A stretch of 59,181 nt of DNA, counting the filler, from Porpidia crustulata (lineage: Eukaryota): assembly GCA_964255105.1 (NCBI GenBank). It is 2 parts of 2 records of this genome, joined end to end, with 100 filler letters (N's around TTAATTAATTAA, not from the genome) between each part and the next. Parts side by side here need not be neighbours in the genome. Positions count along the whole stretch, not along the records: positions 29,886 to 59,181 come from CAXUWE010000026.1; 1 more part is not named here. One strand, 5' to 3'. The position numbers and the translations under genes are program-made. A model generated the notes under the pieces. That model made no database searches and was not told where the DNA came from. It saw nothing but the letters and a program-made list of their open reading frames with translations. This document shows positions 21,200 to 55,573 of the stretch, in pieces; the first letter of the stretch is position 1; every line of letters starts with the position of its first letter.

Positions 21200-21438
21200 C
21201 AAAGACCTGGCAGTGTTCCAATTGGATTTGCAATGTGTCGAGGCGGTACATTCGGATTTGAGGGATCCCACCGAGTACTCGCCAAGGGTTGGTGGGCACG
21301 TGGGTACGCGTATGTACTCTGTAAGGGGGAGCGCTAAGGAATTTAGAGTAGTGATTTTCATAGTCGCGTTGAATGATAGCTTTCCAGTTGCAATATTTTG
21401 AGATGAGGAACGAGCAAAACCCTAGAATCTGCTGAGCT

Positions 21439-34394: not shown

Positions 34395-35496
34395 TCAATG
34401 GAACCCATTGGTCTTCCCTCTACCAGAATAGGCGCTGCTTCCGGCTTCAAAATATGGATGAATACAAGCTTGCTTAGCCGAGAGACGTCCTGCAGGATCA
34501 TAACCCAGCATTGCGTCGAGGAGATCTAGTCCATTATCGTCGAGATTAGACACTAGAGGTCTCGAGTAGTCGCGGGACCATTTAGGAAACGAAGGCTTGA
34601 AGTCTGGGAATGAAGTGACGCCGGGCCACGCATGGTCATCGGGGGTGCCCAGGAGCCTGAATTGTGGTCAGCGTCCCTTGTCGACATGATAAAGAAGCTT
34701 TTAGGCATACCGGAATATCTTGAAAATCTCATCGATCTCCGAATCCCCCGGGAAGAGTGGTTTACGCGTGCACATTTCCGCAAATATGCATCCAACCGAC
34801 CACATGTCAACACCAGTCGAATACTGGCGGCCGCCAAGCAATATTTCCGGCGCACGATACCATAAAGTAACCACTTCGTGTGTGTATGTTCGTAAGGGTA
34901 CACCAAAAGCTCTCGCCAATCCAAAGTCTGCCAGTTTCAGATTGCCGTCACGGTCAATGAGGAGATTTTGCGGCTTTAGGTCTCGATGAAGTACACGGTG
35001 GCTATGGCAGTATCGCACTCCTTCTATCAACTGGCTCATGAACTTCTTCACCATGTTATCGCCTAGGCCCAATCTTCCTAGATCGGGGCCGGAACCCTCT
35101 GGAAAGGCCTTCCCTCTGCCACCATCACTGACTGGGAGTGCCTCCATGTACTTCTTCAGGTCAAGGTCGAGAAATTCGCAGACTAGATATAGCTTGTGGC
35201 CGTCCGCGTGGACAATATTCAAGAGACGGACGATGTTCGGGTCGTTCATCTCCTTCAAGAGTGAAATTTCTCGGATGGCTGTGCTCGGTACCCCTTCATC
35301 TTCAGCTTCTAATCGGATCTTCTTTAGTGCGACAATACGCGTGGGATGCGTCAAATCCCGAGCTTTGTAAACCACACCGTATGTACCTAACAGATGGAGT
35401 CAATAAGACCCTTTGGTACTAAGGGGCATGCTGAGAGGCGCAAAGGGATGCCTTGGTACCTTCTCCAATCTTTTCGAGTTTTTGGTAATTCTCCAT
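34395..35496 (-). CDS. CDC28: Cyclin-dependent kinase 1 (Cdc28/Cdc2/NimX)
   Basis: [73 protein letters not shown] and GDSEIDEIF. Two introns. Confidence 0.97.
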
Positions 35497-36001: not shown

Positions 36002-37156
36002 ATGGCTCGTATCAGAGGCTTAGATCCTCGCCAAAAACCGCCCGAGTCTGTAAAGGCCGTTTACAAACATTACGAAAAGCTTACGGCTGAAAGGATTGAT
36101 AGAGACGCTGAGGTCGTCGATTTTGTGCGCGGTCTCAATTGTCCGCAGAGAAGTAAAATTACCAAAGTCGGAAATATGACAGGCTGCAAATTGGAGAACT
36201 CTGGCTCTCGCATTAGCATTGGAGAAGCGTCAGAGAGCGACTATGTTTCGGTTCCAGTGTATCAGCATGAAGGATTACCAGGTGAGAGCCGATACGATCT
36301 ATGGACCCGAGTGTTTGGATTTGATGATGCAGGCCTACACTTAATACCCTCCTTGTTCTCTCAGGAAATGCAACAAGATCTACTGTCATGTTTGATGCAT
36401 GAGGTTCTGGCTGACGAGAGGCACACGAACAATCTGCATTTGCACTATCGAATCCCGTACCATGCTACTCATGACGAGAAAGAAAGTGACCCGCTTCTAG
36501 GGCAAATATCATTCAATGATCACTGTGAGAACGGTGCCTCATTCTTTAACATTCCTCCAGAGTCTCGTGAATCCTTCATTCCCCTTGACCCAAGTATTCA
36601 CAAGCCATTGTCGATCTCTCAATTTCTGCACAAGAAGTTACGATGGATAACTCTAGGAGGCCAGTACGACTGGACTGCAAAAGCATATCCTGCGGAAGAA
36701 CCTCCGGCTTTCCCCAAGAAGATTGTAGCTTTGATAGGCAATCTTTTCCCTAACATGAAACCCGAAGCAGCTATTATGAATGTATATACTCCAGGCGACA
36801 CATTGAGTGTGCATCGAGACGTGAGCGAATACTCTGACAAGGGTCTTGTCAGCATCAGTCTTGGCTGCGACGGAGTGTTCGTTATAGGCCTGGTGGAGGG
36901 AAAGAATAGGAGTCAAAGCTGTCTCACGATTCGCCTTCGGTCAGGCGATGCAATCTATATGAGCGGGCCGTCACGCTTCGCTTGGCACGGCGTCCCCAAG
37001 ATTATTCCAGATACTTGTCCGCAATGGCTGAGAGATTGGCCTGCGATTTCGCCATCCAAACCTTTGAGAGGTGGCCAGCCGAGCAGGTACGAAGCTTGGC
37101 GAGGCTGGACATCAACAAAGCGGATCAACCTGAATGTGCGACAAATGAAAGATTGA
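36002..37156 (+). CDS. AlkB/ALKBH1 (Abh1)-type Fe(II)/2-oxoglutarate dioxygenase
   Basis: KLRWITLGGQYDW, YTPGDTLSVHRDVSE (HxD), LRSGDAIYMSG.SRFAWHGV and RINLNVRQ. Probable in-frame intron at ~36282-36332. Confidence 0.9.
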   Translation: MARIRGLDPRQKPPESVKAVYKHYEKLTAERIDRDAEVVDFVRGLNCPQRSKITKVGNMTGCKLENSGSRISIGEASESDYVSVPVYQHEGLPGESRYDLWTRVFGFDDAGLHLIPSLFSQEMQQDLLSCLMHEVLADERHTNNLHLHYRIPYHATHDEKESDPLLGQISFNDHCENGASFFNIPPESRESFIPLDPSIHKPLSISQFLHKKLRWITLGGQYDWTAKAYPAEEPPAFPKKIVALIGNLFPNMKPEAAIMNVYTPGDTLSVHRDVSEYSDKGLVSISLGCDGVFVIGLVEGKNRSQSCLTIRLRSGDAIYMSGPSRFAWHGVPKIIPDTCPQWLRDWPAISPSKPLRGGQPSRYEAWRGWTSTKRINLNVRQMKD

Positions 37157-37433
37157 GAGTCTAAAGATCGGAGGCGATTTCGTGGTCGTTGGTGAATCTA
37201 CTCTGCCAAGCTATGATAAGAACTCCGACTGTAAATGCTCGAAGAAATCCCGTCCACAATTCAGTTTTAGATTAAAAGCTCGAACGCAGCAACACGTTTC
37301 CGCGTGTGCAGCAACGACTATTCATCTCAATCCATCGTTCCAAAGCGCGTTCGATTGCCTGGGAAAGCGCGTTCTATTGATACAATACTCATCAGAAAGA
37401 AATTACATCTGCGAGATCCTGACGCGAAAAACA

Positions 37434-38933
37434 TCAGGTTGAAAAAACTCTCGATTTCACGCTGTGCCAAGACTCCCTAACAGGTTTGGGAACCTCATGA
37501 ATTGTACAGTATCCACATTTCCCCACTCCTTGGAGCGACTTCCTGGAAGGTTCCATGAGGCATCCCTGTTCCGGTCCGAAGAATGTCGTTTGTGGTTCGC
37601 TGGCTGGAGAGAGATCTTCTAACCGAGAGACCTGCGCTGAAGATGTAACCTTGCTGATACTGATGCTGGTGGTAGTTTCCTCGTGGAGAAAGCTCAACGA
37701 CAAGCCGTCATCGGCCATGCGGCGGAAGTCGTCGGCGGACTCGCTTGTATATTGCAGAAGATCGAGCCCCTCAAAAACGATAGGAGAGTGGAGCTTGGCC
37801 AGTTCGGTAACATTGTCGAGACTGAAACGTGTAATGGGCGTGCCCTTTGGTACTTGAACCTTGAGTCCGAAAGGATACAGGGGTTCCAATTTAACCTGCT
37901 GGTTAGATTTGACCGTTTCATTGGCATCAATAACGCTGTACATTGGTACGTCGGCACACAAAAATTTGAGGCCAAGCTCATCCTCACAAATCTTATAAGA
38001 CACATCACTGTCCGTTGGCTTGCGACCGAGGCTCAAAGAGACATTCGTAATATCCAGATAGGGAGTGCTGTGCCAAGGAGTCACGGGAAACGTGCTATAA
38101 CGGTTGTGAGGCAACAAGGCCACTGAGATTTTGCGAGTATTATCACTCATATGGATCGATAGACGAATGTGTAACGGGGACTTGCTGGCCACCAAGGCGG
38201 AAAAGGCCTTGCCACGTTCAATCATGCCACGCGCCACCCTAGAATTGTACTTCTTGGCAGCACTCTTGCCCATACCCTTCTCGCGAAAGACTGTCGCCAA
38301 ATCCAATTCTAGGAATTTCATATAGCCTCGATACGTTAAAAGGGCATTATTGTCCTTCTTAATGTCTTCATTAAAGTCATACCCTGAGGGAAGGAAAGAG
38401 ACAAAAAGACGTTCCTTGAGCTCTCCAATGCGAGTTGCATACTCTTCAGCAGTAGTCGGTGGGCTCTCGCTACCAACCAATTCAAAGATGTCCGTGAATC
38501 TCAAGTGTTTCAGTCCCAGACTCGCGGTGATACGGCGAAGACCCTTTGCATAGTCGAAAACTTCCTCGTCGGAAACGCCCAGCAAGTCATTGTAACAAAC
38601 ACCGTCGCTAACAATAGTGACGTGGCCACCAGGCGGATATACTTGCTCAATGCCTGCACCGATAGAGTTGAAATGTTGGAGAGACATGCGTTCACCCACG
38701 TCTGGATCGGGGCCGAGGACCTTGGATTCATGATTGGGGCTCTTGAATGGATACGCAGGCACCACCATATTTACGGGTTCTTGTTTAGCAACAAAGCTGC
38801 GCAGTGTGTCCAACATTTTGGGTTCCATCACGTCTTTATACTTATCGCGTGGGCCGCTGATACGGTACGAGGCAATGACCTCAGCGATGCGCTCAACCTG
38901 AGCCTCATCGACGACCGGTCTCGTTGTCGTCAT
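37434..38933 (-). CDS. Isocyanide synthase (Dit1/PvcA family) with a truncated, degenerate TauD-like C-terminus; intronless
   Basis: [51 protein letters not shown] and TPWH are PvcA/Dit1 motifs. The start could instead be 39050 or 39053. Confidence 0.92.
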
Positions 38934-41317
38934 ATTTGAAGTCTTGAAGAAGAGTGTCTTGGTGACACTGAGGCGGGATGGGCCCAACGCCTGAGGAGGC
39001 TCGACAGCCCAAGTCTCAAAGCTGGACGTAACTGTAATGGTGTTGGACATCATAATGGCTCGTTATGATGACGAGGAAGAGGATTGTTGAAGTGGTAATG
39101 AAACAACAACGAGAAGAATCAGAAGTTGGATACCAACACTCATGGGAGGTAAAAGTGGTGCATCTGGCCGAGTACACACTATACTATAAAAATACCAGCC
39201 ATCTTACGGCCTCGTGCGCCTTGCAGTCTACCATGTGGCTTCCTCTCGTGTTCCTTGCATTCTACCCTGTGGCCCGCCTTGTATTCTTTACAATCTACCC
39301 CGTGGCTGTGTCCGATTGAACCAGTGTAAGAGATCACGTTATTCCGCGGTGACCGTAAGCTCCGCGGGCGTCTAATCGCTCGGGGCTTCCATTTTTGGAC
39401 GCTCAAAAGTGAATGGTTTCTCCTCCGGTCTTGGTCCGGCCCCTTTCCGCATTCTCATAAATAGATTCTAAAATTATTCTTTTCTCACAACAGTGAAGCG
39501 AATCTCCAGACTAAGACAACTTCATTGGAGCTCCGCCGCAATTGACCGTTCTTCACTGAACATCTCCGATCACCATTTTCGCCCCCTCTTTGAGAACGAT
39601 CAGCTCCATGTTCGTATCTGGAAGGAAAATCTACCATAGCATGAACATTGCACACAAAAATCATCCAAGTTGACGTTCTTAGGTCTTACAAAGGTGATCT
39701 TGTGGAGATCGATGACTGTGAACGATGGCTTGCCACAGAGACATTCGGCGTGCAAACGGAGCAGACAAAAGCACTTTTCCAAGAAGGCGATGTTCTTAGA
39801 AGAGTAGGGAAGCAAAGAATATCAATAGCTAGTAAACACCACAGCAGCAAAAAGTACTTCATAATGTCGACAGCAGATCTACTTCAAATTTTACTCCGGT
39901 GATTGTGAGCTGAGAAGTACACCACAAGCAAAGCCATGAACCTGTCTTTGCAATTCCTATTTTCGTCGATCTTTCACCGTTTCTGCAGCCAGATACTTAG
40001 CAAAGCAAGAGTAGGGCAAGCGGAGATGGCATTCCTTCCAATATCGCCGTTCAAAAAATCTTCGGTCATGTGATTCCCAATCTAAAGGAGAATTTTGATT
40101 GAGAAACGATGGGATATAAATATCTAGAGATCGAGATGGAGACTGCTTGTGGATATTTGGTCACCCAATAAAATACAATTTGAACGCTGTTGACAGGAGC
40201 ACAAACAGCTTATAGGCGCATGCTGGATCCCAATAAGATACGACTCTACCTATTGTGTAGACTCTCATACCCCTGTTTCATCCACTGTCATCTGGACTCA
40301 ACGCGATTACCGCGGACACTCGTCAGCCTTCTCGTACGCGCCTTGCACCCTTAGAAGAACATCGAGTCTGTTACCTGAGCATCAACCACGAGGTGCGGCT
40401 ATGAGGCTGAAGTGTCGGACCAGCTAGCGCACAAGATTTGAGCCAAGCAAGGAAAGCAAAACCAATAATGGTGAGGGGATCAAGCGGTAACGACGAGGGA
40501 CTGGCGCAAGGCGCTTCTCAAGGACGAGGCGCAGACCTTCCCTCTCTTTTGGTCATGAGGTAGTAGTGATGCTTAGGCCAAGCATTGTCACGGGGCGCGC
40601 CCTCATCGGAAAGCGAGAAATCACGCCATTCGTCGGGTGGTGAACTTTTACCAGTATACGTGATATAGCAAAGTGTGAATAAAGCCTCCGTCGTGACTAC
40701 GAAAGTAGTACTTTGCACTCGCATTGTAGAGGAAATGTGCTCGCGTCTTGACGGGCTTCTCTAATGTCGAGGGACAGAGAAGCTCATATAAGCGTGGGTG
40801 TATGACAGCTGTATGTTGGACTGCTTACGAACCAATACGCCAAGGAGATCGGACAGACAACGTTCTGTCACGCAAGCCTTTCAATTGCGAACTATGTATG
40901 TTGAAAAGCATTCCTTTGATACAGTAATGGCCTGGACAACTTCTGAAATTTGAGCGAGGTACTTTCAGGTATATATTAAGCGCGCTTTGTCATTTACGCC
41001 GACTCCAAATGCTTGTCCGCGGGATGCTGACCTGCGTAGTCCGCGTATATGCGGTCGGCAATCCTTGCCTCCGACGACAGTGAATATGCTGGCGGTGAGC
41101 AATCAAACAATAAAGCCATGGAAATTCGATTTCGACGGGTGAATGCTCGGTGGCGCAGCTGATTGGGCTGGACAGGGCAAGACATAATAATAGGAAGTCA
41201 TGCCATTCATCTTGCATCCCCCCCTCCCCCCTCCAACACTCTGGAAAGCGCACACGACAGTCGGTAGGATACTATCTCTCCATCTACTTTCTCACTTACA
41301 CTTGTGCTCCATTCATC

Positions 41318-43378
41318 ATGGCTATCACAGCACCTACACCAAGGCACACGTTCACTGAGCGTGCTGCAGCGGGCAACCTGAACGACGCTGAGATCCTCAA
41401 CTCCAACAATGCAGCTGGTTCGGATCCGCCCGAAGACTCTGACGTTGTCGTCGCCGGTGGTGGCATGCATGGTCTCATCTACGCCATCCACTCGGCCAAG
41501 TACAAGCCAGGCAACCTCAAGATCTCACTCATGGAAAAGAGCGCCAAGCCAGGATACAAGATCGGCGAGAGCACCCTGCCTCTGTTCTCGTTGTGGTGCA
41601 AGATGCACGGTCTCACAGGCGAGTATCTCCTGCGTCTCTTCGGCCTCAAGGACGGACTGTCCTTCTACTTCCTCGATCGGGAGAACCAAGGCAAGTACAC
41701 CGACTTTGCCAGCAATGGCACGCCAGGCCTCTTTCTGAGCGGCTTCCAAATCGAGCGGACCATCAGTGAGCTTCTCTTGACAGTCCTTGCACAACGGAGT
41801 GGTGTCAATGTATACCATGGAAGGCAAGTCGACTTTAATGCCAGTAAGATTCAAGGTGGTGTCGAGAGTAATAAAGTTGGAATTGCCCAGGGCAAGCATG
41901 ACGGCAAGCCGGCGGTAACGATTGACTCTTCGCTCCTTGTTGATGCGACAGGCCGATTCCGCCAGCTAGCTTCGAAGAACGCTCCTATCCACCGTTTCGA
42001 TGGTTGGAATTACGACGGCTTCTGGGCTTATTTCACGTGCCCGAAAGATGAGAGCAAGATTCCTCTCCGTTTCTACGAAGGTCTACACACCAACCACCTA
42101 TGCTTTCCCGAAGGTTGGGCCTGGGTCATTCGCTTCGCCTCGTGGGAAGGTAGCCCGATTGCCAACTTGATGGACATGATTTCGTATTTGCTCGACTGTG
42201 CCGAGGCTGGGATTCCGGGCGACCAAGTCCCAAGCTCAGAGGAGCTCGCTAAGATGTTTGGACTCAAGTTCCGTTGGCTGACAAGCATTGGCTTTGCCGT
42301 CCGTAACGACGTCAAGTACCCCGAAGACATGTCTCAATACGGAACCAAGGAAGGGGAGCGTAAATTCAACTACTTTGTCCAAAAGTACGATGTCATCAAG
42401 GAGTTCATGACCAACTTCGAGCTGATCGATGACCTCTACGGCCCCAACACGACTTGGTTCATCCGCAAGTCGTTGACATATCAGTCTCCCGTCGTCTCCG
42501 GCCCAGGCTGGCTCGCCATTGGCGACGCATGCGGTTTCACCAACCCGCTCCATTCCCCTGGCATCACGGCCGCCATGTCCACCTCAACGTACGCCGCCGA
42601 GCTCACGCACACGGCCCTCGAGACCGCCCAGAGAGCCGACAACGCCGAGGCCGCCGAGCTCTCGATCCGCAAAACCCTGGCCCCCTACGACGACTTTACC
42701 AAGCGCCTGTACCCGGCGCTCAACCAGATGAACCGCTTCAACTACGTCTGCTTCCGGGAGCCCCGCCTTGGCCCGCAGGTCTCCTGTCTCTGGCAATTCT
42801 TCGCCGGCATCGGCATCCCCGACTGGCAGCTGATCCGACAAGACTACAACCTGACCTTCCAGACCTACGTCCCGCACTCGGTCAACTGGGCCTGGGGCTC
42901 CATGGTCCCCGAATACGACGCCGTCGCCCGCAAAGCCATCAAGCTGATCGCGCCCATCCCACTCGCCGACCCCGTCCCCGACGCCGTCGTGCGCGAGCTC
43001 CTCGCGTTCTCGAACCGCATCAAGGACACCGCCGTGGCGTCGAACCGCTTCAACTTCCGCTGGGACGGCCTGCTGCGCTACTACGACATCTGCCTCAACT
43101 ACAGCGAGGCCAAGACGACCAAGGACAAGTTCGCCCGCCAGTGCGCCGGCTGCGCGTCCTGGCTCGTGCTCCGGCCCGACTGGCGCAAGTGCTACTCGTG
43201 CGGCTTGGAGCGCTCGGCCGAGGAGGCCGCCATCACGTGGAATCCGCCGTTAGCGGTGGATGAGGTTAAGGCGCTCGTGAGGGCGTCGGACGCCAAGCCC
43301 GCTGCGAGGCGGGAGAGGGAGGAAGCCGCGGATGCGGCGCCTGCTTTTGCTGCACTACCGACGGAGGTGGCTGTGTAG
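41318..43378 (+). CDS. Zn-binding flavin-dependent halogenase, MalA-like; intronless
   Basis: GGGMHG Rossmann motif, YKIGES, LFGLKDGL (catalytic Lys), DATGR, the halogenase WxWxI motif as WAWVI, GDACGFTNPLHSPGI and a C-terminal CAGC-x12-CYSC. By recall it is collinear with malbrancheamide halogenase MalA along its length. Confidence 0.9.
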   Translation: MAITAPTPRHTFTERAAAGNLNDAEILNSNNAAGSDPPEDSDVVVAGGGMHGLIYAIHSAKYKPGNLKISLMEKSAKPGYKIGESTLPLFSLWCKMHGLTGEYLLRLFGLKDGLSFYFLDRENQGKYTDFASNGTPGLFLSGFQIERTISELLLTVLAQRSGVNVYHGRQVDFNASKIQGGVESNKVGIAQGKHDGKPAVTIDSSLLVDATGRFRQLASKNAPIHRFDGWNYDGFWAYFTCPKDESKIPLRFYEGLHTNHLCFPEGWAWVIRFASWEGSPIANLMDMISYLLDCAEAGIPGDQVPSSEELAKMFGLKFRWLTSIGFAVRNDVKYPEDMSQYGTKEGERKFNYFVQKYDVIKEFMTNFELIDDLYGPNTTWFIRKSLTYQSPVVSGPGWLAIGDACGFTNPLHSPGITAAMSTSTYAAELTHTALETAQRADNAEAAELSIRKTLAPYDDFTKRLYPALNQMNRFNYVCFREPRLGPQVSCLWQFFAGIGIPDWQLIRQDYNLTFQTYVPHSVNWAWGSMVPEYDAVARKAIKLIAPIPLADPVPDAVVRELLAFSNRIKDTAVASNRFNFRWDGLLRYYDICLNYSEAKTTKDKFARQCAGCASWLVLRPDWRKCYSCGLERSAEEAAITWNPPLAVDEVKALVRASDAKPAARREREEAADAAPAFAALPTEVAV

Positions 43379-46310: not shown

Positions 46311-46725
46311 GTGCAGTGGTGGACTTGAGGTCTGCTTGTTTGACCAACAAGTAGTAAGGCGGATCAATGTCGGTGTTGCGGTGAGGGAGCGAGCAGGTAC
46401 CTAAGTACCTAAGAAACCCACGCGACTTCGTAAGGCTATCCTTATCTTATCTCGTATCTTAGCGCCAATCTGACGCGGAACCGTTTTGGGCTTCGGAGTC
46501 TAAGTGAGAATCCGCGGAGCTTTACAAGTCTCCGTACTTGCATACTCTACTCACGGTAGGCTTACCGTGCCGATGTCAAATCAAATCACAACAAAGTAAT
46601 TTAGGCCGGTGCCTTCAAAACGCCCACCTTCATCCCCCACACTTGATCCAACTTCATCTGGTACAGTAGATTCTTTTCCTACCGCCGGCGTCCACTTTGA
46701 TCCTCTCCACTTTGCAGAGGTCATA

Positions 46726-48330
46726 ATGTCTACTACCGGCGGATCTCCAATTCTACACGATGGAGCCCTCAGTAAAGAGGAATCAGAGCGATCCGATAAC
46801 ACCGTTGTAGGGGCTGGTGGCGCTGGCGAGCCGGACGCAATTGCTTCGCCTTCCAATTTTTCGTCTCCACTTCAAGAGGGTGTCTTTATCTTTGTCATTG
46901 GCTTGTCCCAGCTCTTTTCAGTCGGAGGTCTTGGAAATGCGGCATATTCGGTGGAAGAGATCGGTCGTTCTCTCAACGCGACCAGCAACGGACAAACGTC
47001 GTGGTTCCTGGCAGCATACTCGCTGGCCGGTGGTGTCTTTGTCTTGATCACTGGACGGCTGGGAGACCACTTCGGCCATAAGTATGTCTTCATGTTCGGA
47101 TGGTTCTGGTTGGCCATCTGGTCTCTTATCTGCGGCTTCGCACACAATGTCATCCTCTTCGACTTTGCCCGAGCAATGACTGGTATCGGCAATGGCGCCC
47201 TGGTACCCAACTCGTTTGCTCTCTTGGCGCGAGCGTTCCCGCCCTTTTCGACCAAGAAGAACATTGCATTTGCTTTTCTTGGCTTCTGCGCTCCTTCGGG
47301 TTACATCTTTGGTGGTCTCATTGGTGCTGCATTTGCTCAAAAAGTTACCTGGCAATGGGGCTTCTGGTTCTGGGCGATTGGCTCCCTATTCCTCGGCATT
47401 GCGACTTTTGTCATTGTTCCACACCGCATTGGCTCCCCATTGCCTGGACTCAGTTTCAAGCAATTTGACTACATTGGCACCTTTCTCGGCCTATCCGGTC
47501 TCATCTTCTTTGCCTTTGCATGGAATCAAGCATCTGTGGTTGGCTGGCAAGTGCCTTACACGTACGCCCTTCTCATTGTCGGCATCGTCTTCATCGTGGC
47601 CTTCGCCTATTCTCAGTCACACGCCTCGGCACCAGTCTTACCCAACACGCTCTGGACACGCAAAGGATTCTCTCCTATCGTGATAGCGATGTCTTTTGGC
47701 TGGATGTCCTTTGGCATTTTCCTTTATTACACGACCATCTTCATCCTCACAATACACAAGGAAACCCCTCTCGCTGCCGTAGCAGAAATGACCCCTCTAG
47801 TCATCGGAGGCATCTTTGCCACGGCATCGGTCGGCATTTTCATTCAAAAGGTTCCAGCTCAGTACATCTTTGGCGTTTCCATGTTCTCGTTCTTCTTCGG
47901 TAACCTAATGATGAGTTTTGCCGAGTACTCCAAAGTCTATTGGGCCTTTATCTTTCCAGCTTGCTTCTTCGTCGTCGGAGGACCGGACCTTTCCTTCGCC
48001 TCGTCTGGTATTCTCATCTCCAACGTGGTCATGCCAGAGGAGCAAGGTGTGGCCGGGTCGTTCATCTCAACGGTGGTGCAATACTCGATTGCCGTCGGCC
48101 TCGGTATTGCTGCCACGGTAGAGTCGCACGTCAATAAGGGTGGCCGCGATCTTGTTCGTGGGTATCGTGGTGCCTTCTGGCTCGGCATGGGATTTGCAGC
48201 TGTCGCCTTCTTTGTGGTTGTGATTTTTGTTCGTGATCACCGCTTCGATGGGGTGAAGAATGCCGAGAAGGAGGTCAACGGTAGTCATGACACCATTGAA
48301 GAGGCTGCAGCAGTGAAAGGCGACTTCTGA
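46726..48330 (+). CDS. MFS drug:H+ antiporter, DHA2 (Atr1-like, ~14 TMS); intronless
   Basis: SWFLAAYSL, motif A GRLGDHFGHK, ARAMTGIG, FDYIG and EEQGVAGS, with many hydrophobic segments. Confidence 0.92.
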   Translation: MSTTGGSPILHDGALSKEESERSDNTVVGAGGAGEPDAIASPSNFSSPLQEGVFIFVIGLSQLFSVGGLGNAAYSVEEIGRSLNATSNGQTSWFLAAYSLAGGVFVLITGRLGDHFGHKYVFMFGWFWLAIWSLICGFAHNVILFDFARAMTGIGNGALVPNSFALLARAFPPFSTKKNIAFAFLGFCAPSGYIFGGLIGAAFAQKVTWQWGFWFWAIGSLFLGIATFVIVPHRIGSPLPGLSFKQFDYIGTFLGLSGLIFFAFAWNQASVVGWQVPYTYALLIVGIVFIVAFAYSQSHASAPVLPNTLWTRKGFSPIVIAMSFGWMSFGIFLYYTTIFILTIHKETPLAAVAEMTPLVIGGIFATASVGIFIQKVPAQYIFGVSMFSFFFGNLMMSFAEYSKVYWAFIFPACFFVVGGPDLSFASSGILISNVVMPEEQGVAGSFISTVVQYSIAVGLGIAATVESHVNKGGRDLVRGYRGAFWLGMGFAAVAFFVVVIFVRDHRFDGVKNAEKEVNGSHDTIEEAAAVKGDF

Positions 48331-48906
48331 GATGATGTGACCTTCGGGTAGCTTACAATTTTGGTTCCATTGACCTTGTCTACACTCCGCACGACTCGAC
48401 GCTTCGTCTAGAAATAGGTTAGCTTGCAGCAACAACAAACATATTACTCTAGAATTTCCAGACAGACATGCTATGGAAATTACAACTGCCGCAACAACTT
48501 GGATCTCACGGCAGGACACCTTACACTCTTTGACATCTGAGCGTCACTCCCCAGCCACAAGAAGCCTCATTCAAAAGAGAAGCGCATATCCAATTCTGCG
48601 GCACTAGCTACTTAGTGGTCTAAGCACAATTGGCGCACGTCATCGCCGTAACATCCCCTCCCCCTCAATGGGACGGCTAACCGACTTCATGAGGCTAGCC
48701 CTAACCCTAGATTAGCCGTCTCTCTCTGGCTCGTATCGGCTCGGTCCGCGGACGCTACAAAACTCCACGGATTCCGGCCAAAGTCCGGTTGCTTGGCACT
48801 CTATATACATACCTTACTTGAGAGATAAGGAAGTGTGATGGTTGTTGGTACGAGTCTGAATTTGCACTTTAGATTGTGAAGTCAAAATAAGCAGAAAAGA
48901 TCAAAA

Positions 48907-49713
48907 ATGCCGACACACCGCATCCTCTCACTGGTGTACGACGGGTTCGAGGCGCTAGATCTCTTTGGGGCCCTGGGTGCCATCGTCCCACGCAGCGACT
49001 ACTACACCCTCAAGCTGGTTAATATCCACAATCTGGGTGCACCGCACGGGCTGGAATCCTCCATCAGGAATGGTATCGGCACTTTGCCCAGCCTTTCATT
49101 GGCCGAAGCGCTCAAGGAAGAGGGGCAGATTGACACCCTCTTTATCCCTGGAGGGTTCGGTATGTTGCCGTTGGTTTGGGAGCCCTTTTCGCTGCAGCAG
49201 ATTGGTCAGCTTGTCGACCGTGCCGCCAACGTCTTTACCGTCTGCACTGGATCCATCCTGTTGGCTGCCACCGGTCGGCTCGACGGTCGCAAGGCAACCA
49301 CAAACAAGCGCCTTTATGAGGAGATAACACCAAAGTGTACGTGTTGTGGGTCACCGTAGCTGTCGCTTTCGTTCACATTGACCTTACATCTAGACCCTGG
49401 CGTCCAATGGCAACAGCGTGCTCGCTGGGTACAAGAGGGCAAGTTTTTGACCTCTTCGGGGGTGACGGCGGGTATTGATGCCGCTTTTGCTTTCATATCC
49501 AACACTTGGGTTTCCCCCGAGGATCGTAAAGCCAACCCCACTCCACAACAAGCAAGTGCCGAGGGAGATGCAACGGCTATCCCAGGCTTCAACAAAGAAA
49601 AAGCACTGGGACATGCCCACTTTGTTGCATTTGGTTTGGAATACCGATGGCACATGGATCCCGCTGACGATCCATTTGTCGATTCGCCTAAAGGCACTAA
49701 TGGTACTCTGTAA
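48907..49713 (+). CDS. DJ-1/PfpI (ThiJ) family protein, isocyanide-hydratase-like
   Basis: YDGFEALDLFG, LFIPGG, nucleophile elbow VCTGS, GRLDGRKATTNK and RWVQEGKFLTSSGVTAGIDA. Intron 49337-49393. Confidence 0.88.
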
Positions 49714-49988: not shown

Positions 49989-52775
49989 CTACAGGGAGGA
50001 GCGGCTACCGTCACCCGAGGCATAGGTTAATAGAAACTTGGCTGCTACATATGCATCAGCGCTTGAAGGTGTCGTTGCAGCTTCGCTTCTCCCGCTCAAC
50101 TTGGTAGGTCCGCTCGCTATAGACGAAGGTGACGCATGTATGACCCGAGTGCCATCGATATTGCTATACACATCGCCAAACTCCGGTGTTCCGAAGCTGC
50201 TCAATGACTGCGCCGCGCCGGAAGACTGCCTAAGTGGTACCAAGCCGGATAGGTTTTGCATGTCTGCTGTAGCCGAAAAATAACCATTCTCGGTGGGAGA
50301 TTTAGGAGTAGCGATCTCCAAAGATTGCCAAAAGTCGTAGCCCGGATCGTTGGAGAGCATTGGTAGCACATCAAAGTCTTGGAATCCACCAGTAGTGGTT
50401 GCTAAAGGCATAGACATGTCCAGAGCGAATATCGAGTTTAGATTGGCTTCCTCCGCTGTCGTACTTGCGTTTAGGGTATTTCCTTGAAGACTGTCCAAGG
50501 TATCCATGACTTTGTTCTTGAGTGATTTTCTTGCATTGCTGTCAGATCTTACTCCTTGTCCTCCTTGTCCTCCTGGACGGTTTCCTGTTGATTTTGCTCC
50601 ATTGCCTTCTTCGTTGTTGTCGGACTCCTCTTCCTCTAGCCTCATCAAGGCTTCGAGTGCAAGAAAACTTCGCCGAGTAGAGGCTTTGTCTTGTTCTAAT
50701 TGAGGGTCTTGTAGGGACGGTGGACCTTCTAAACCGTTTCGAGTCCGTAATAGCTCGATAGCTTCCCGGATCTTGTCTCTTGTCATTAATCGACTTAATT
50801 GGGCACCTGAACAATCTACACCTTTGTGCTTGGATGAGAATAGCAAATCAAGGATCAGTACAATAGCGGCGTTGAACAGCTGGGTTTCGCTAGTGGACAG
50901 AGAACCACAAACAGCGCACCGTGCTTGTATCTGCCCCTGAGAGCTGATAATGTTCTGTGCTAGCAGCTGACAGGATGAGCGGCCATCCTGTGACGAGAGA
51001 CTAGCCCGATGAAGTCTCAAGAAAAGACTCCATAGCTGCTGATGTAACATCCATCGCTGTACAGGTATTGCTGCCATGGGACCTGTTGAAGTGAGTCCCA
51101 TGGTGCTTCCCAGTCTAAAGTAAGACGGCAATCCAGCAACAAAGTTTTCATACTGTTTGTTCAGATGGTGTCGCATTTTTGCACCTTCAGTTGTCTTTTC
51201 TTGTCGTGGAGCTTGGCTAAAAGGACCGCGCAAGTCGATGGACTCGCGCGCGAAAGCTGCTATTTCTAAAGCGTGGACTGTATATGAGAGCATAGTGAAC
51301 TCGGATCGAGGCCGCTCAGTAATGTAGCCATGGACATTGATCGCCAATGTTGTGGGACAGAGATCGTCATCATTGATATGCAACGGCACCCGAGTGTTGA
51401 ACTGTGAGGGATGAATACTATAGTAATCCAGCGCTTGTCCGCGTGACCAATCTCGCATCACAAGTGCCCACCTATATTTCAAACAAATCAGAGATCAATC
51501 TCTAAAGCGAGGGTTTTGCGTTCAAATGACTTACCAGATACGAACACCGATTTCTGTTCGTACGTGAGGCGGCTCCGTCGACATTAACGGGCTATCTTCA
51601 GGGAAAGAGATGGGCGATGCAGACGCTACCAATTTTGCGTCACCCAGTCGATGTAAACCTAGTTTCTGGGCTCCAGAAATTGCGTTGACCAAGATAGCAT
51701 CGAGCGCTAAGGATCCCCCTTGGCCTTGGAGCAAAAGCATGATGGCAGCTTGTAGACTGGCAATTGAACCACAAAATAGTGAAACCTCTCCTTGAAGGCA
51801 ACGCAAGGCAAGTGACCTCCATGTCCTGGAGTGTACATCTGACGCTCGAACTTCTTCCACATAAAGAGTCAGAGGTGAAGGAGACCAGCCAAGTAGAGAT
51901 GGTGTGGGATGGAAGGCGAGAGCGAGCACGAGCTATAAAAGAGAACATGAGCGTACGCTTCATGTGCGGTATAGTGGAATACGCACCGCCAAGAGGTGAC
52001 AGGCAATTGCATCCATGGAAATCGTATTAGACAGGGCCGTGACTTGTGCTTCTGACGAAGCAAGACTCAAGCAGCCACAAAATGTTTCTGCATGCTTCAT
52101 AAATGTCGGTGTGTGTACAATGTTGCCCAGAGGACCTTGACAACGGGTAACGAAAACTTGGTAGAGGAGGCGAATCATGTCTAAACCGGGCATAGCATCG
52201 ACAATTTCTCGAATCAATGCAAGTTGTACACCTTGTCTTTGTGGATTATTGGCATTTAACCAGTACACATTGGGGTACTCTGGTGCCACATAGGATAATG
52301 TCTGTTTAGAGACAGCGGACGGGTAGGCGTTGGTGCGAGATGTTCCATCGACAAAGTCTTCGAGGACCTGCGCAGCCTCATCTGCTTCTGTTCCCTGGTT
52401 TTCCAATGCATTGCTGATAAAACAGACACATGTCAATGAGAGGTTCGTGAGGAGCCATCTTTGAGCAGAACTCACGTCTCCGGGTCCCTTCTACCACTGT
52501 TATCCGTCTTTGCCCTTTTTACCCTTGGCTGACGTTCGTCTTTGGTACAAAGATGGCCGACATTGCGCTTGACACATTCCATCTATATGAACAAGATCAG
52601 TCACAAAGTTGATGGTGCATCGAAACCGGCGACATACACATGGTTCCTCTCTGTCACATTTCAGCTTGGATGCTCTGCATCGAGCACATGACTGAGTAAA
52701 CTTGCGCACACCAGACTCCGAACTGAAAGAGGCTTTGGTGCTGGCGTGCCCGTCCTTTGAACTGTGGTCAACCAT
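49989..52775 (-). CDS. Zn(II)2Cys6 transcription factor 2
   Basis: CARCRASKLKCDREEPC|MECVKRNVGHLC, AQKLGLHRLG, EIGVRIW|WALVMRDW and PLHINDDDL fungal-TF domain. Multi-exon; divergent from ICS-TauD. Confidence 0.88.
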
Positions 52776-53638
52776 CGTTGGTGGGCCATGAGTATTGGGC
52801 AAGTGCGGCGTTCCCGTTCAGCTAGCAAGAGGCCGGACGAGCCGAAGGACGCATGGATGAATTAAGTCCATGGACATGTACATAGTAGCACGGGTTGGAT
52901 ATGGTAGAGTAGTTCGTGGATAGTGTTATTGGGGCTTTGCCCTGATTGGTGGACAGCCTAGATAGATGGATATTCACACTAACTGACTTTGCTCATTCAT
53001 TCAACCTTGATCTCAACGTGTCTATTATATCATGAAGCATAAGTAACCTAATCATCTAGATCTACGACGCTACGACTTGAATTTCAATTCAGACGGTTCT
53101 ATATGGTTTAAAGATAAATTCGAAATCCATGAGTGACGTTGCTCATCAAGCAATGCCCTGGTCTATGAATAACCGACCTATCCATAGAAACACCCGTCTG
53201 AGCTGTGAATGGAAGTTATCTAAGAGTTTTGTGCAATATGTGACATGTGCATCGTCCGCTGCTGATCAGGTGCCAAATGTGCGACCCAAACCCGCACATA
53301 AATCCACCTCCGTCGGAGTCCGTGTGTGGCTATACAGCGATTCTACCAACTCCGCCGCCTCCGATTCAATATTGATGGAAGAGAGTATGAAAGCATACTC
53401 GGACGGAGGAATAATTCACGCTCGGATCTCCTCATGACTACACCGTAAGCGTCTGAGTGGTGCGGAGCAACGTGAAGTGTGATCGAGAACCCTCTTTCGT
53501 GTCTGAGGAGAAGTGTCAAGTACTACTGACATCTCAAGAGATAATAATGAGCTAAGACGAAGACATGACCCTCCTGAATCAAATTTGAGTATCGATCCTT
53601 TTCTTCCTCAATATCTCCCTACAATCTTTCTCGACAGC

Positions 53639-55573
53639 ATGCCTTCCGCAACCTACATTCCTCCTACAGAGACCCAAGTCTCCAAGATCCTTTCCATCAT
53701 CTCGGCCTACCGCCACCGTTCAGTCAACGTCCCAGACCGCTTTGCCAAATTTGTTCCACAGCTCCAGAAGCAATTAGCCGATACTGTCTCCAAGAAGGAG
53801 CCTGTGAGTTTCGTCTTGCCGGCTTTTCCTTTCAAGGCACCAGCCGAGGACAATAAGAGCAAGACCCTAGGCTCGTTGCCTGATAAGGCGGAAGAAATTG
53901 CTTTGCAAACGCTCGATGGGTTTGCCGATTCCATTGCCGAAATCTACGAGGGTGGCGCCAAAGTTGTGATTGTATCGGATGCTTCCGTCTATGGAGGTAG
54001 AGAAAGCATAGTATCCCTTTTGAAAATGATCGAGTTGCCAACACTGCTGTATAGACATTCTACAAGTCTCAGACGCCGACGCTTTTGCTTACCAACACGA
54101 ATTGCGAAAGCTTGCCTCGTCCCTTGATCTCAAGCACCTCGAATTTGTACGTCCAGGTACGCTAGCCGGCATCGTTCCCAATGATGCACAGATGCTCGGG
54201 GAGTACTCTACCCAGGTACAACAAACTCGCAATCTTCTCGATGGCCCTCTTGCTCAACAAATTGAGGCAAGCGAGGATGAAAATGTGCAAGCAACGAGTA
54301 AGCACTACGATACGGCTCTTCCAAAAAATGAAGATCCAGAGGCTTTCAAGGCCGCAATGCTGAGGCGAGGAAAGGTACAAGCTTCGTATTGATAGCCAGT
54401 CATATATTTGCATGTTGCTGATACTATACACTGCTTACTCAACAGGCCTACGCCAAGCTAATTGCTTCGACATCACGATCGTCTATCCGTCTGTCCATCC
54501 ACGAGTCGAACAACGTCGGCAAAATAACTCTTGATCTCTTTCCTCCATCGACCAACCTAAGCTTTCTCACACCGTGGCATGGGGCCGTCGCGATCCTTGC
54601 GGATGCAAGCGTGCGTGTCGTCGATGCATCGACAGTAGACAAGGTCAAATTCGACGTTATAACCAATGCTCAAGGACAACCTTGGCTGCTACGTGAAAAA
54701 TCTGACCTCTTCTACTTCCCCGGCATGATACTGGACTTTGAACCGCTCTACCCATGTGGTATGCTTGTCAAGCCGAGGGAAGGCCACGATCCCTATAAGT
54801 TCGAGGATGTGGACATGCAGCGCGTGCGCCGCCTTGCCCTTTCTACTGCACCCTTACTTCTTCGAGGGTTCACCATGAAGGTGCAAAAAGAAGTCTTCCG
54901 CGCCAAAGCTGGCGAGCTGGGCGAAATTCAAATGTGGCCGTTCGGCGATATTCTCGAGGTTCGGGAGAACGCCAGCTTTAACATGAACAACGTTCTCACC
55001 AACGAAGCCATGCCTTTCCACTACGACGGCGTTTTCAAGACAATCAAGGACGAAACGACCGGCGAACCGATTTCCGTGCCGCCGCTGTTCCAAATGTTCC
55101 GTAACCGTGCCGCCGACCAGCAAGTCGGCGGCCTGACCCTCTTCTCATCATCCCGCAACCTCCTCGCTCTCCTCGGCCCAGACACTATCCCTCTCACCGA
55201 CCTGCGCAAACTCAAATGGAAAACCTTCACCGCCGTCAACGAAGCCTTCGGCGGCACTGAGCTGCTCCTACCCTTCATCGCCTCCCACCCGGAAACGGGC
55301 GCCGACACCTTTCGCTTCCACGAGCCCTGGCCCGCCAGCAAGTGCATTGGCGCCACCAGCGAACCAACCCTCATCGAGGTGCCGGGCCTGCCCGATGCCG
55401 AGAGCGTGGTGCTGTGCGACAGACTGACCGCGCTCATGTACGACCGCCGGGTGGTGCTGCGTCACCAGTGGAGCGAGGGAGATTTCATCTTCAACGACAA
55501 CGCCACGACGCACCATACGCGGACGGCGTTTGAGAGCGGTCATCGGGAACTTTGGCGCGTGCACGTTAACTAG
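53639..55573 (+). CDS. Isocyanide synthase-TauD/PvcB Fe(II)/2OG dioxygenase fusion (XanB-like architecture)
   Basis: ICS motifs VLPAFPFKAP, LGSLPDKAEE, IVSD, IRLSIH and TPWH, then TauD motifs LLLRGF, MPFHYDG (HxD), GGLTLF and HQWSEGDFIFNDN..HHTR. Introns 53997-54054 and 54375-54445. Confidence 0.92.

What the first reader, a model, noticed from the sequence alone, without database searches (positions are those of the whole stretch)
37434..37900. Two ICS paralogs show complementary degeneration: one kept the synthase, the other kept the dioxygenase
Seen: after its ICS domain, gene 1 reads [11 protein letters not shown]...[13 protein letters not shown]. This aligns by eye with FEPLYPCGMLV...LALSTAPLLLRGF, the start of the TauD domain in gene 2 (~54740-54870). 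Gene 1 then decays into low-complexity sequence with no HxD...H triad. Gene 2 has an intact TauD but a shortened, divergent ICS core (SDASVYGD vs [17 protein letters not shown] vs [13 protein letters not shown], with the following helix shortened). Inferred: both descend from ICS-TauD fusions and have subfunctionalised, perhaps acting as a heteromer. This recalls the two-PvcA-plus-one-PvcB arrangement (AmbI1-3/WelI1-3) used for cyanobacterial indole isonitrile.
Basis: partly seen in the sequence, partly recalled or inferred. Interest (0 to 1): 0.8.

Follow-up and report, generated by a model that had tools for sequence, protein, structure and literature searches.

The report
Isocyanide synthase with gutted dioxygenase domain
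In a fungal gene cluster for isocyanide natural products, one of the two core enzymes still carries a small, well-kept remnant of a dioxygenase domain that its partner enzyme has kept whole; the cluster type is already published but its product is unknown.

Summary
Gene 1 (37434-39053, minus strand, one 539-aa ORF) is a canonical isocyanide synthase (ICS). Residues 386-458 of its tail are homologous to the N-terminus of the TauD-type dioxygenase domain of ICS-TauD fusion proteins: profile-profile E 6.3e-9, against 20 shuffles scoring no better than E 0.1. The catalytic core with the HxD...H triad is missing.

Gene 2 has three exons and encodes 601 aa. It is an ICS-TauD fusion with an intact TauD domain. 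Its ICS domain is about 17-20 aa shorter than those of fungal relatives and differs at 9 of 42 family-wide conserved positions.

- This is not recent decay. The pair belongs to the published, uncharacterised icsA/icsB ("ICS4G") cluster type of Aspergillus fumigatus.
- The two genes appear to share a contig in 12 other assemblies.
- The remnant is folded and almost as conserved as the ICS domain.
- Aspergillus and Penicillium orthologues also keep a C-terminal TauD piece, so the core was lost by internal deletion.
- Gene 2's ICS domain is under strong constraint and is not degenerating.

Trees link both genes to intact ICS-TauD proteins of Calcarisporiella. A division of labour is plausible but untested. 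The heteromer idea got no verdict. Interest is moderate.

The parts
37434..39053 (-). Gene 1: IcsB-type isocyanide synthase, one ORF, 539 aa plus stop
   Evidence: ORF. Orthologues of 499-586 aa, 100 to 59% identical, one named 'Isocyanide synthase B'.
38019..38801 (-). ICS (DIT1_PvcA) domain of gene 1, residues 85-345
   Evidence: Pfam E 8e-79. AF2 model matches PvcA 3e59 at Z 31.8, rmsd 2.6, 301 aligned. All 42 near-invariant positions kept.
37680..37898 (-). Folded remnant of the TauD N-terminus, residues 386-458 (strand-strand-helix-strand-helix-strand)
   Evidence: hhalign E 6.3e-9 against ICS-TauD fusions, with controls. pLDDT 84-92 in the tail-only model. 62-80% identity to orthologues. 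Foldseek's top three PDB hits are P.IsnB and PvcB, best E 4.7e-3.
37434..37679 (-). Poorly conserved, predicted disordered end of gene 1 (residues 459-539 and stop). It includes a decayed trace, CGYCTIHEV, of the C-terminal TauD piece that Aspergillus/Penicillium orthologues keep.
   Evidence: pLDDT under 50 for 460-511 and 524-539; strand 514-520 about 68. Identity to orthologues 10-39%. No TauD-like reading frame downstream of the stop.
53639..53996 (+). Gene 2 exon 1 (IcsA-type ICS-TauD), N-terminal part of the ICS domain
   Evidence: GT..AG borders and an end-to-end match to 601-603 aa orthologues. Pfam DIT1_PvcA profile positions 3-71, E 6.2e-25.
54055..54374 (+). Gene 2 exon 2, the divergent and shortened middle of the ICS domain (TSKHYDTAL in place of TYRGYxKFL)
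   Evidence: No Pfam hit alone at E up to 0.1. Changed near-invariant positions. Spacing 128 against 143-162 aa in fungal relatives.
54446..55573 (+). Gene 2 exon 3: end of the ICS domain (RLSIH, TPWH), then the TauD domain from about 54722, with HYD at 55019-55027, and the stop
   Evidence: Pfam DIT1_PvcA profile 200-271, E 2.9e-14, and TauD E 3.3e-33. Alignment to P.IsnB 7tcl, E 4.9e-22, and PvcB 3eat.
41114..43378 (+). Cluster neighbour: FAD-dependent, tryptophan-halogenase-like reading frame
   Evidence: Pfam Trp_halogenase E 1.3e-12, N-terminal 78 profile positions only.
46600..48330 (+). Cluster neighbour: MFS transporter
   Evidence: Pfam MFS_1 E 3.7e-30.
48880..49359 (+). Cluster neighbour: DJ-1/PfpI protein, the family that includes isocyanide hydratases
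   Evidence: Pfam DJ-1_PfpI E 1.7e-11. ThiJ/PfpI genes are drawn in the A. fumigatus isocyanide clusters (PMC5974471 figure legend).
49989..52802 (-). Cluster neighbour: probable Zn2Cys6 transcription factor, in several reading-frame pieces
   Evidence: Weak Zn_clus hit, E 0.0024, below Pfam's cut-off, in 52500-52802. The other pieces have no Pfam hit.

Best explanation
Shown here:
- Genes 1 and 2 are the two backbone genes of a conserved fungal isocyanide cluster of the icsA/icsB (A. fumigatus 'ICS4G') type.
- Gene 1 is a canonical ICS. Its former C-terminal TauD dioxygenase domain has been gutted by deletion.
- A 73-residue N-terminal piece survives as a folded, conserved sub-domain. It has no conserved iron-binding residues, so it cannot act as a dioxygenase.
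- Gene 2 is an ICS-TauD fusion. It has a complete PvcB/IsnB-like Fe/2-oxoglutarate dioxygenase and a shortened ICS domain that is changed at conserved sites yet strongly conserved among orthologues.
- Both genes belong with the same group of intact ICS-TauD proteins.

Inferred:
- Gene 1 makes an alpha-isocyano acid from an amino acid and ribulose 5-phosphate.
- The TauD domain of gene 2 carries out the PvcB/IsnB-type oxidative step on an isocyano acid.
- Gene 2's own ICS domain either has a changed substrate or is a non-catalytic binding domain.
- The remnant in gene 1 is kept because it packs against and stabilises the ICS domain, or serves as a contact surface.
For: Family and architecture.

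Remnant homology: hhalign E 6.3e-9 and 1.4e-5, with reversed and shuffled controls at scores 11-19 against 67. 25 non-orthologous proteins align through the remnant, 16 of them with Pfam TauD. Foldseek on the tail-only model ranks P.IsnB 7tcl (E 4.7e-3) and PvcB (4ylm, 3eat) first of 350,542 chains.

Internal deletion: the C-terminal piece in Aspergillus/Penicillium orthologues aligns to the last TauD strands, E 2.7e-4, score 30.1. None of 40 shuffles exceeded 21.6.

Constraint: remnant identity is 80% to close relatives and 62% to Aspergillus/Penicillium, against 81% and 68% for the ICS domain. pLDDT is 84-92.

Gene 2: HxD...H is present. Nine of 42 conserved ICS positions are changed, yet the ICS domain is 79-81% identical to orthologues.

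Common origin: the ICS tree joins Calcarisporiella and IcsB at 97/91. The TauD tree joins Calcarisporiella and IcsA at 99.

Conserved pairing: relatives of both genes show the same longest-contig length in 12 other assemblies. P. ucsense has tags PECH_003735 and PECH_003740 on a 32.5-kb contig.

Published cluster: PMC5974471.

Cluster content here: transporter, DJ-1/PfpI, Zn-cluster factor.
Against: - No activity, product or expression data exist here.
- Pfam itself does not see TauD in the tail.
- The structural match of the remnant is weak. No Foldseek hit reaches E 0.001. With VIA-align, 7tcl at Z 5.5 is tied with unrelated alpha/beta folds at Z 6.0. The model was built from an alignment that contains full TauD domains, which may bias it.
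- The sister relation of the two ICS domains has weak support, 61/20. The remnant is no closer to gene 2's TauD (29% identity) than to other families (31-40%).
- Gene 2's ICS domain keeps K104, D118, S149, D150, R297, S299, H301, K308 and TPWH. It may therefore be fully active, which would make gene 2 self-sufficient.
- I could not see which residues are catalytic. No paper on the new ICS structures 9dh4/9dhm was found.
- Contacts between the remnant and the ICS domain could not be measured, because no model coordinates are given.
Confidence: 0.6

Rival explanations
1. Two independent, fully active synthases. Gene 2 works alone like XanB, with ICS and dioxygenase in one chain, and makes a vinyl isocyanide. 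Gene 1 makes a second, different isocyano or formamido building block from another amino acid. The two units are joined or used in parallel. The remnant is only a structural leftover needed for folding.
For: Gene 2's ICS domain scores about 200 bits on Pfam DIT1_PvcA in orthologues. It keeps most invariant residues and is as conserved as its TauD domain. The two ICS domains are only 32% identical, which fits different substrates. XanB-type fusions are reported as working enzymes (PMC5974471, passages).
Against: The TYRGYxKFL motif is present in 7 of 7 bacterial and 12-13 of 13 other fungal sequences examined. In gene 2's family it is replaced by TSKHYDTAL, and the region is 17-20 aa shorter than in fungal relatives. 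That is unusual for an enzyme with unchanged chemistry.
Confidence: 0.28
2. Obligate heteromer. The TauD remnant of gene 1 docks on gene 2, so that gene 1's synthase feeds gene 2's dioxygenase directly. Gene 2's ICS domain acts as a non-catalytic adaptor.
For: The remnant is conserved and folded without any catalytic residues. The two genes appear together in 12 other assemblies. A changed ICS domain kept under constraint is what a pseudoenzyme adaptor would look like.
Against: Nothing here shows contact. The N-terminal strands of TauD-family enzymes are not, to my recollection, their usual oligomer interface (recalled, not tested). A purely intramolecular structural role explains the conservation equally well.
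Confidence: 0.1
3. The similarity of the tail to TauD is chance or low-complexity noise, or gene 1 is a decaying pseudogene.
For: Pairwise BLASTP is only E 0.005. There is no Pfam hit in the tail. The last 80 residues are poorly conserved and predicted disordered.
Against: The profile-profile score of 67 compares with 11-19 for the reversed profile and 20 shuffles. Alignments are collinear in 25 unrelated-lineage proteins. The ORF is intact, with ICS-level conservation of residues 386-458 across about 50 orthologues.
Confidence: 0.02

Closest known systems
A. fumigatus ICS4G cluster, icsA (AFUA_4G01370) and icsB (AFUA_4G01420); Lim et al. 2018, PMC5974471 (passages read)
   Same: Both have two ICS genes in one cluster, one 'monodomain' and one ICS-dioxygenase. 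Both have a C6 transcription factor, a transporter and a ThiJ/PfpI protein. Orthologues of both window genes carry the source names 'Isocyanide synthase A' and 'Isocyanide synthase B'. The A. fischeri orthologue of gene 2 is 78% identical over exon 3.
   Different: The paper treats one enzyme as single-domain and does not mention a TauD remnant in the passages I read. It also assigns the letters the other way round from the NCBI names (IcsA single-domain, IcsB ICS-DOX). The product is unknown and the genes were not expressed under its conditions. I did not fetch the A. fumigatus proteins themselves.
XanB-type ICS-TauD (ICS-DOX) fusions and bacterial PvcA/PvcB, IsnA/IsnB
   Same: Gene 2 has the same two domains in the same order. 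Its TauD domain matches P.IsnB 7tcl (E 4.9e-22) and PvcB 3eat (E 5.1e-17). Gene 1's ICS domain matches PvcA 3e59 at Z 31.8.
   Different: Gene 1 has lost the dioxygenase core but kept 73 residues of it. Gene 2's ICS domain lacks the TYRGYxKFL motif and is shorter than in fungal relatives.
Calcarisporiella thermophila ICS-TauD proteins (P0137, P0139, P0144)
   Same: They are the nearest intact relatives of both window genes. Their ICS domains are 39-47% identical to gene 1, and their TauD domains are 46-60% identical to gene 2, with tree support. Two of them show the same 58-kb contig length and have tags three apart.
   Different: Both of their domains are canonical by Pfam. They look like the undivided state. 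Their genomic neighbourhood could not be fetched.
Cyanobacterial AmbI1-3 / WelI1-3 (PMC4236562, passages read)
   Same: Two ICS-type units and one dioxygenase unit in one cluster.
   Different: I1 and I2 are at least 78% identical recent duplicates, and AmbI2 is reported as redundant. All three are separate proteins. Here the ICS domains are 32% identical, one is fused to the dioxygenase, and the other carries a dioxygenase remnant.
Nickles et al. 2023 survey of fungal ICS clusters (PMC10153163, sections 18 and 20 read)
   Same: The paper proposes that monodomain ICSs arose from ICS-TauD ancestors by loss-of-function mutations. It also describes a cluster family (GCF 1) that holds two ICS genes from an old duplication.
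   Different: It gives no sequence trace of the lost domain. I could not tell whether GCF 1 is this cluster type, because its figures and supplements were not seen.

Membership tests
Isocyanide synthase, Pfam PF05141 DIT1_PvcA (gene 1) | Significant match to the family profile over its full length | tested here: met
   E 8e-79, profile positions 2-263 of 273.
Isocyanide synthase, Pfam PF05141 DIT1_PvcA (gene 1) | PvcA fold | tested here: met
   AF2 model against 3e59_A: Z 31.8, rmsd 2.6, 301 aligned.
Isocyanide synthase, Pfam PF05141 DIT1_PvcA (gene 1) | Family-wide conserved residues | tested here: met
   All 42 near-invariant positions are kept in 12-14 of the 14 gene 1 orthologues examined.
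Isocyanide synthase, Pfam PF05141 DIT1_PvcA (gene 2 ICS domain) | Significant match to the family profile | tested here: met
   Exon pieces give E 6.2e-25 and 2.9e-14. Full-length orthologues give E 1e-58 to 1e-60, about 200 bits against 250-315 for other fungal ICS proteins.
Isocyanide synthase, Pfam PF05141 DIT1_PvcA (gene 2 ICS domain) | Family-wide conserved residues | tested here: inconclusive
   Nine of 42 are changed in the family majority: S105A, N107G/D, G151A, N155G, G159 variable, Y241S, G243H, F247A, A274K. The rest are kept. Which of these are catalytic is not known to me.
TauD/TfdA Fe(II)/2-oxoglutarate dioxygenase, Pfam PF02668 (gene 2) | Profile match and the HxD...H iron triad | tested here: met
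   E 1.9e-33, profile positions 16-266 of 267. HYD at 418-420 and the distal His align with P.IsnB 7tcl.
TauD/TfdA Fe(II)/2-oxoglutarate dioxygenase, Pfam PF02668 (gene 1 tail) | Profile match | tested here: not met
   No Pfam hit at E up to 10. Only the first part is homologous by profile-profile comparison.
TauD/TfdA Fe(II)/2-oxoglutarate dioxygenase, Pfam PF02668 (gene 1 tail) | HxD...H iron triad | tested here: not met
   No conserved triad. The window's HEE at 456-458 is HEG, HEA or HQQ in orthologues. The tail is a remnant, not a member.
icsA/icsB (ICS4G-type) fungal isocyanide cluster | Two ICS genes, one with and one without a dioxygenase domain, together with a transcription factor, a transporter and a ThiJ/PfpI protein | tested here: met
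   compared with the figure legend and text of PMC5974471. Direct comparison with AFUA_4G01370 and AFUA_4G01420 was not done.
AmbI1-3 / WelI1-3 arrangement | Two near-identical IsnA duplicates plus a separate IsnB | tested here: not met
   The ICS domains are 32% identical and one is fused to TauD. I1 and I2 are at least 78% identical (PMC4236562).

The most novel reading that the evidence does not exclude
The 73-residue TauD remnant of gene 1 has been re-used as a docking module that binds gene 2. The changed ICS domain of gene 2 is a pseudoenzyme that receives the isocyano acid. The cluster would then encode an obligate two-chain machine, with one working synthase and one working dioxygenase, each paired with the dead copy of the other's domain. 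It would have been assembled by complementary loss after duplication of a Calcarisporiella-like ICS-TauD gene.
Probability: 0.1. Interest if true: 0.65.

Novelty: new variant of a known kind. Interest (0 to 1): 0.4.

Why it matters
Fungal isocyanide clusters are a recently recognised class of natural-product pathways with metal-binding and antimicrobial products. The icsA/icsB type is widespread but has no known product.

Three points come from this work:
- The 'single-domain' synthase is in fact a former fusion with a conserved, folded dioxygenase remnant.
- Its partner's synthase domain is altered at otherwise invariant sites.
- Together these give a concrete, testable model of who does what in the pathway.

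The result also supplies sequence evidence for the published suggestion that monodomain ICSs arose by loss of TauD. It warns that domain-based classification of ICS backbones can miss such remnants.

Tried and rejected
- Complex prediction. Gene 1 residues 45-539 were run with gene 2's TauD domain. The result was no verdict: score 0.00, controls not run, my alignments not used. It says nothing for or against binding.
- RNA evidence for the gene models.
- Whole-genome search. No genome is held for this window.
- Earlier scan notes (one search was a word-format error). Nothing on this genome. The two notes shown, on a phage and an archaeon, do not bear on this finding.
- Literature on catalytic residues of ICS and on the new structures 9dh4/9dhm/9dhn. 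Nothing usable was found, so I cannot say whether gene 2's changed positions line the active site.
- Search for a paper holding 'isocyanide synthase', 'TauD' and 'truncat': none. The locus tags of icsA and icsB occur only in Lim 2018.
- A hidden exon carrying the rest of TauD downstream of gene 1. Rejected: no such frame in 36800-37433, and an AlkB-like gene on the other strand starts 278 bases away.
- An intron hidden in the poorly conserved linker 459-511. I judged this unlikely, because the frame stays open in the unspliced ORF calls of many relatives. It was not tested with RNA.
- VIA-align of the whole gene 1 model found P.IsnB only at rank 40, Z 5.1. For the tail alone it was rank 3, Z 5.5, tied with unrelated folds. 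This is weak support only.
- Nine of the 25 proteins that align through the remnant have no Pfam TauD. They may be cut gene models or further cases of loss. This was not resolved.
Full report
WHAT IS THERE

The window is fungal: genes have short GT..AG introns.

Gene 1 is one open frame on the minus strand, 37434-39053, 539 aa. Pfam places a full isocyanide synthase domain (DIT1_PvcA) at residues 85-345, E 8e-79. An AlphaFold2 model has mean pLDDT 80.8. It superposes on PvcA 3e59 at Z 31.8, rmsd 2.6 over 301 residues.

Gene 2 lies 14.5 kb away on the plus strand. I built it from three exons with GT..AG borders: 53639-53996, 54055-54374 and 54446-55573. The 601-aa product aligns end to end with 601-603 aa proteins of Aspergillus, Penicillium and lichen-forming fungi. 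It is an ICS-TauD fusion. TauD scores E 1.9e-33. HYD lies at residues 418-420, and a distal His aligns with that of the isonitrile-pathway dioxygenase P.IsnB, 7tcl.

THE OBSERVATION

The two genes compared directly give only a weak match: BLASTP, 49 residues, 29% identity, E 0.005 for that one comparison. Pfam finds no family in the tail alone, even at E 10.

Relatives settle the question.
- A profile of the tails of about 50 gene 1 orthologues was compared with a profile of gene 2's family. The result was E 1.4e-5, score 43.9.
- Against 21 other fungal ICS-TauD fusions, it gave E 6.3e-9, score 67.1, probability 95.9%.
- The reversed profile and 20 column shuffles scored 11.4-19.3, E 0.1-0.8.
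- A phmmer scan of 1.84 billion representative proteins with gene 1 gave 150 listed hits. In 31 of them a single aligned stretch runs from the ICS domain through query residue 425 or beyond.
- Six of the 31 are gene 1's own family. Of the other 25, 16 carry a Pfam TauD domain. In at least 11 of those the Pfam TauD envelope starts 19-36 residues before the end of the stretch aligned to gene 1.
- A model of the tail alone has pLDDT 84-92 over its first 70 residues, arranged strand-strand-helix-strand-helix-strand.
- Foldseek found no PDB match at E 0.001. Its three best of 350,542 chains are P.IsnB (7tcl, E 4.7e-3) and PvcB (4ylm, 3eat). Other TauD/TfdA enzymes follow.
- With VIA-align, 7tcl is rank 3: Z 5.5, rmsd 3.2, 88 aligned. 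It is tied with unrelated alpha/beta folds.

So the tail's first 73 residues (386-458, window 37680-37898) are a true piece of a TauD domain. The structural support is modest, and the model's alignment contained whole TauD domains.

First, the remnant is not decaying. Identity of the window protein to five close relatives and to eight Aspergillus/Penicillium orthologues is as follows.

| Region (residues) | Five close relatives | Eight Aspergillus/Penicillium orthologues |
|---|---|---|
| ICS domain (50-345) | 81% | 68% |
| Remnant, 386-432 | 80% | 62% |
| Remnant, 433-458 | 70% | 62% |
| Linker, 459-511 | 39% | 10% |

Second, the Aspergillus/Penicillium orthologues end in a 50-residue block that is 76% identical among themselves. 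This block aligns with the last strands of TauD, the region of the distal His. The scores are E 2.7e-4 (score 30.1) against the ICS-TauD fusions and E 2.8e-3 against gene 2's family. None of 40 shuffles exceeded 21.6. The catalytic middle was therefore lost by internal deletion, leaving both ends. In the window's lineage the C-terminal end has decayed further: it is 12-17% identical and only a moderately confident strand remains at 514-520. No TauD-like frame lies beyond the stop.

Third, no iron triad is conserved in the tail.

GENE 2'S SYNTHASE DOMAIN

It is shorter. From the SD motif to RLSIH there are 128 residues, against 143-162 in ten other fungal ICS proteins and 135 in two bacterial ones. 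Its middle exon alone gets no Pfam hit at E up to 0.1. Full-length orthologues score about 200 bits, where other fungal ICS proteins score 250-315.

I examined 42 positions that are invariant or nearly so across fungal and bacterial ICS proteins. Gene 2's family has changed nine, including the TYRGYxKFL motif, which reads TSKHYDTAL. It keeps K104, D118, S149, D150, R297, S299, H301, K308 and TPWH, in gene 1 numbering. The 42 positions were defined on an alignment in which gene 1's family is the majority. The other fungal and the bacterial groups agree with them.

This domain is not drifting. It is 79-81% identical to orthologues, close to the 81-85% of the TauD domain. I could not learn which ICS residues are catalytic.

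ORIGIN

In a maximum-likelihood tree of the ICS domain (61 rows), gene 1's family is one clade (100/99). It groups with three intact ICS-TauD proteins of Calcarisporiella thermophila (97/91). Gene 2's family sits on a long branch. Gene 2's family, gene 1's family and the Calcarisporiella proteins form one side of a branch in the best tree, but with weak support, 61/20.

In a quick tree of the TauD domain (32 rows), gene 2's family groups with the same three Calcarisporiella proteins (SH-aLRT 99). Domain-wise BLAST agrees. Gene 1's ICS domain is 39-47% identical to theirs, gene 2's TauD domain is 46-60% identical, and the two window ICS domains are 32% identical to each other.

The simplest reading is one ICS-TauD lineage that duplicated. 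One copy then lost the dioxygenase core, and the other changed its synthase domain. The remnant itself is no closer to gene 2's TauD than to others, so this last step rests on the trees.

CONTEXT AND LITERATURE

Between the two genes lie the following:
- an FAD/halogenase-like frame;
- a frame resembling fungal transcription-factor domains (a lead only, from the protein atlas);
- an MFS transporter;
- a DJ-1/PfpI protein;
- a probable Zn-cluster factor.

Lim et al. 2018 (PMC5974471, passages read) describe the A. fumigatus 'ICS4G' cluster. It has two ICS genes, icsA and icsB, one single-domain and one ICS-dioxygenase. The figure legend for the A. fumigatus isocyanide clusters (read; the figure itself not seen) lists C6 transcription factors, transporters and ThiJ/PfpI proteins among their genes. 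The genes were not expressed under the paper's conditions, and no product is named.

Sources name orthologues of gene 1 'Isocyanide synthase B' and of gene 2 'Isocyanide synthase A'. That is the reverse of the domain assignment in the paper's text.

Two gene 1 orthologues carry the UniRef name 'TauD/TfdA-like domain-containing protein'. Some automatic signature therefore already touches the remnant.

This includes tags five apart on a 32.5-kb contig of P. ucsense. That they share a contig is my inference from those numbers.

Nickles et al. 2023 (PMC10153163, sections 18 and 20 read) propose that monodomain ICSs arose from ICS-TauD ancestors by loss. They also report a cluster family with two ICS genes from an old duplication. 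I could not tell whether that family is this one.

No paper in the library holds 'isocyanide synthase', 'TauD' and 'truncat' together.

The cyanobacterial AmbI1/AmbI2 pair is at least 78% identical, and AmbI2 is reported redundant (PMC4236562). That is a different situation.

HOW IT PROBABLY WORKS

The anatomy, the homology, the conservation and the cluster type are shown.

By analogy with PvcA/PvcB and IsnA/IsnB, I infer the following:
- Gene 1 makes an alpha-isocyano acid.
- Gene 2's TauD domain performs the oxidative step to the vinyl isocyanide.
- Gene 2's altered ICS domain either uses another substrate or only binds the intermediate.
- The remnant is kept as a structural part of gene 1 or as a contact surface.

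I put about 0.9 on the anatomy and descent and about 0.4 on this division of labour. The main rival, at about 0.28, is that both synthases are active and gene 2 is self-sufficient like XanB. An obligate heteromer is possible, at about 0.1. The one prediction I ran gave no verdict and counts neither way.

VERDICT

The locus is a new member of a published, uncharacterised cluster type. The conserved, gutted dioxygenase domain is a detail I did not find in print. Interest is moderate, 0.4.

Noticed in passing
window 36002-37156 (+): An AlkB-like 2OG-Fe(II) oxygenase (Pfam 2OG-FeII_Oxy_2, E 5e-34) ends 278 bases from the stop of gene 1, convergent with it. It could be a housekeeping repair enzyme or a further cluster oxygenase.
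   Followed up: no
window 41114-43378 (+): A long frame of 754 codons, stop to stop. Only its first part matches tryptophan halogenase / FAD-binding profiles (E 1.3e-12). It lies in the most GC-rich stretch of the window (0.58 at 42-44 kb). It is a possible tailoring halogenase or monooxygenase of the cluster.
   Followed up: partly
window 43752-45518 (-): A 588-codon frame with no Pfam hit. The protein atlas places it near fungal-specific transcription-factor domain clusters (score 0.94), which is a lead only. Together with the Zn-cluster frame at 49989-52802, the cluster may hold two regulators.
   Followed up: partly
P0137 and P0144 (Calcarisporiella thermophila, tags 9058 and 9061, same 58,277-base contig length): Two intact ICS-TauD genes apparently lie three genes apart in an early-diverging fungus. 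This may be the undivided form of the icsA/icsB pair. The locus could not be fetched.
   Followed up: partly
P0053 and P0134 (Parajaminaea phylloscopi): A basidiomycete yeast has relatives of both genes on what appears to be one 9.86-Mb record. Both sit on long branches. The gene 1 relative is cut to 443 aa. This may reflect transfer or an old origin of the pair.
   Followed up: no
against PMC5974471: Naming clash. The paper's text calls IcsA single-domain and IcsB ICS-dioxygenase. NCBI records call the 601-aa fusion 'Isocyanide synthase A' and the TauD-less protein 'Isocyanide synthase B'.
   Followed up: no
gene 2 orthologues P0098, P0105, P0109, P0112 against P0108, P0113: Gene 2's protein is about 80% identical between lichen-forming fungi (Teloschistales names) and Aspergillus. 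That is unusually high for a secondary-metabolism enzyme across fungal classes.
   Followed up: no
P0169, P0173, P0177, P0183, P0202, P0213, P0227, P0261, P0297: Nine ICS proteins from other lineages align with gene 1 through the TauD remnant but have no Pfam TauD. They are either cut gene models or further, independent cases of TauD loss that leave the same N-terminal piece.
   Followed up: partly
window 34553-35400 (-), 21436-23724 (+), 27563-28834 (+): Housekeeping-looking neighbours: a CDK-like kinase in exon pieces, a two-AAA-domain ATPase, and a CAP-domain protein. They suggest the cluster's left border lies near 36-37 kb.
   Followed up: no
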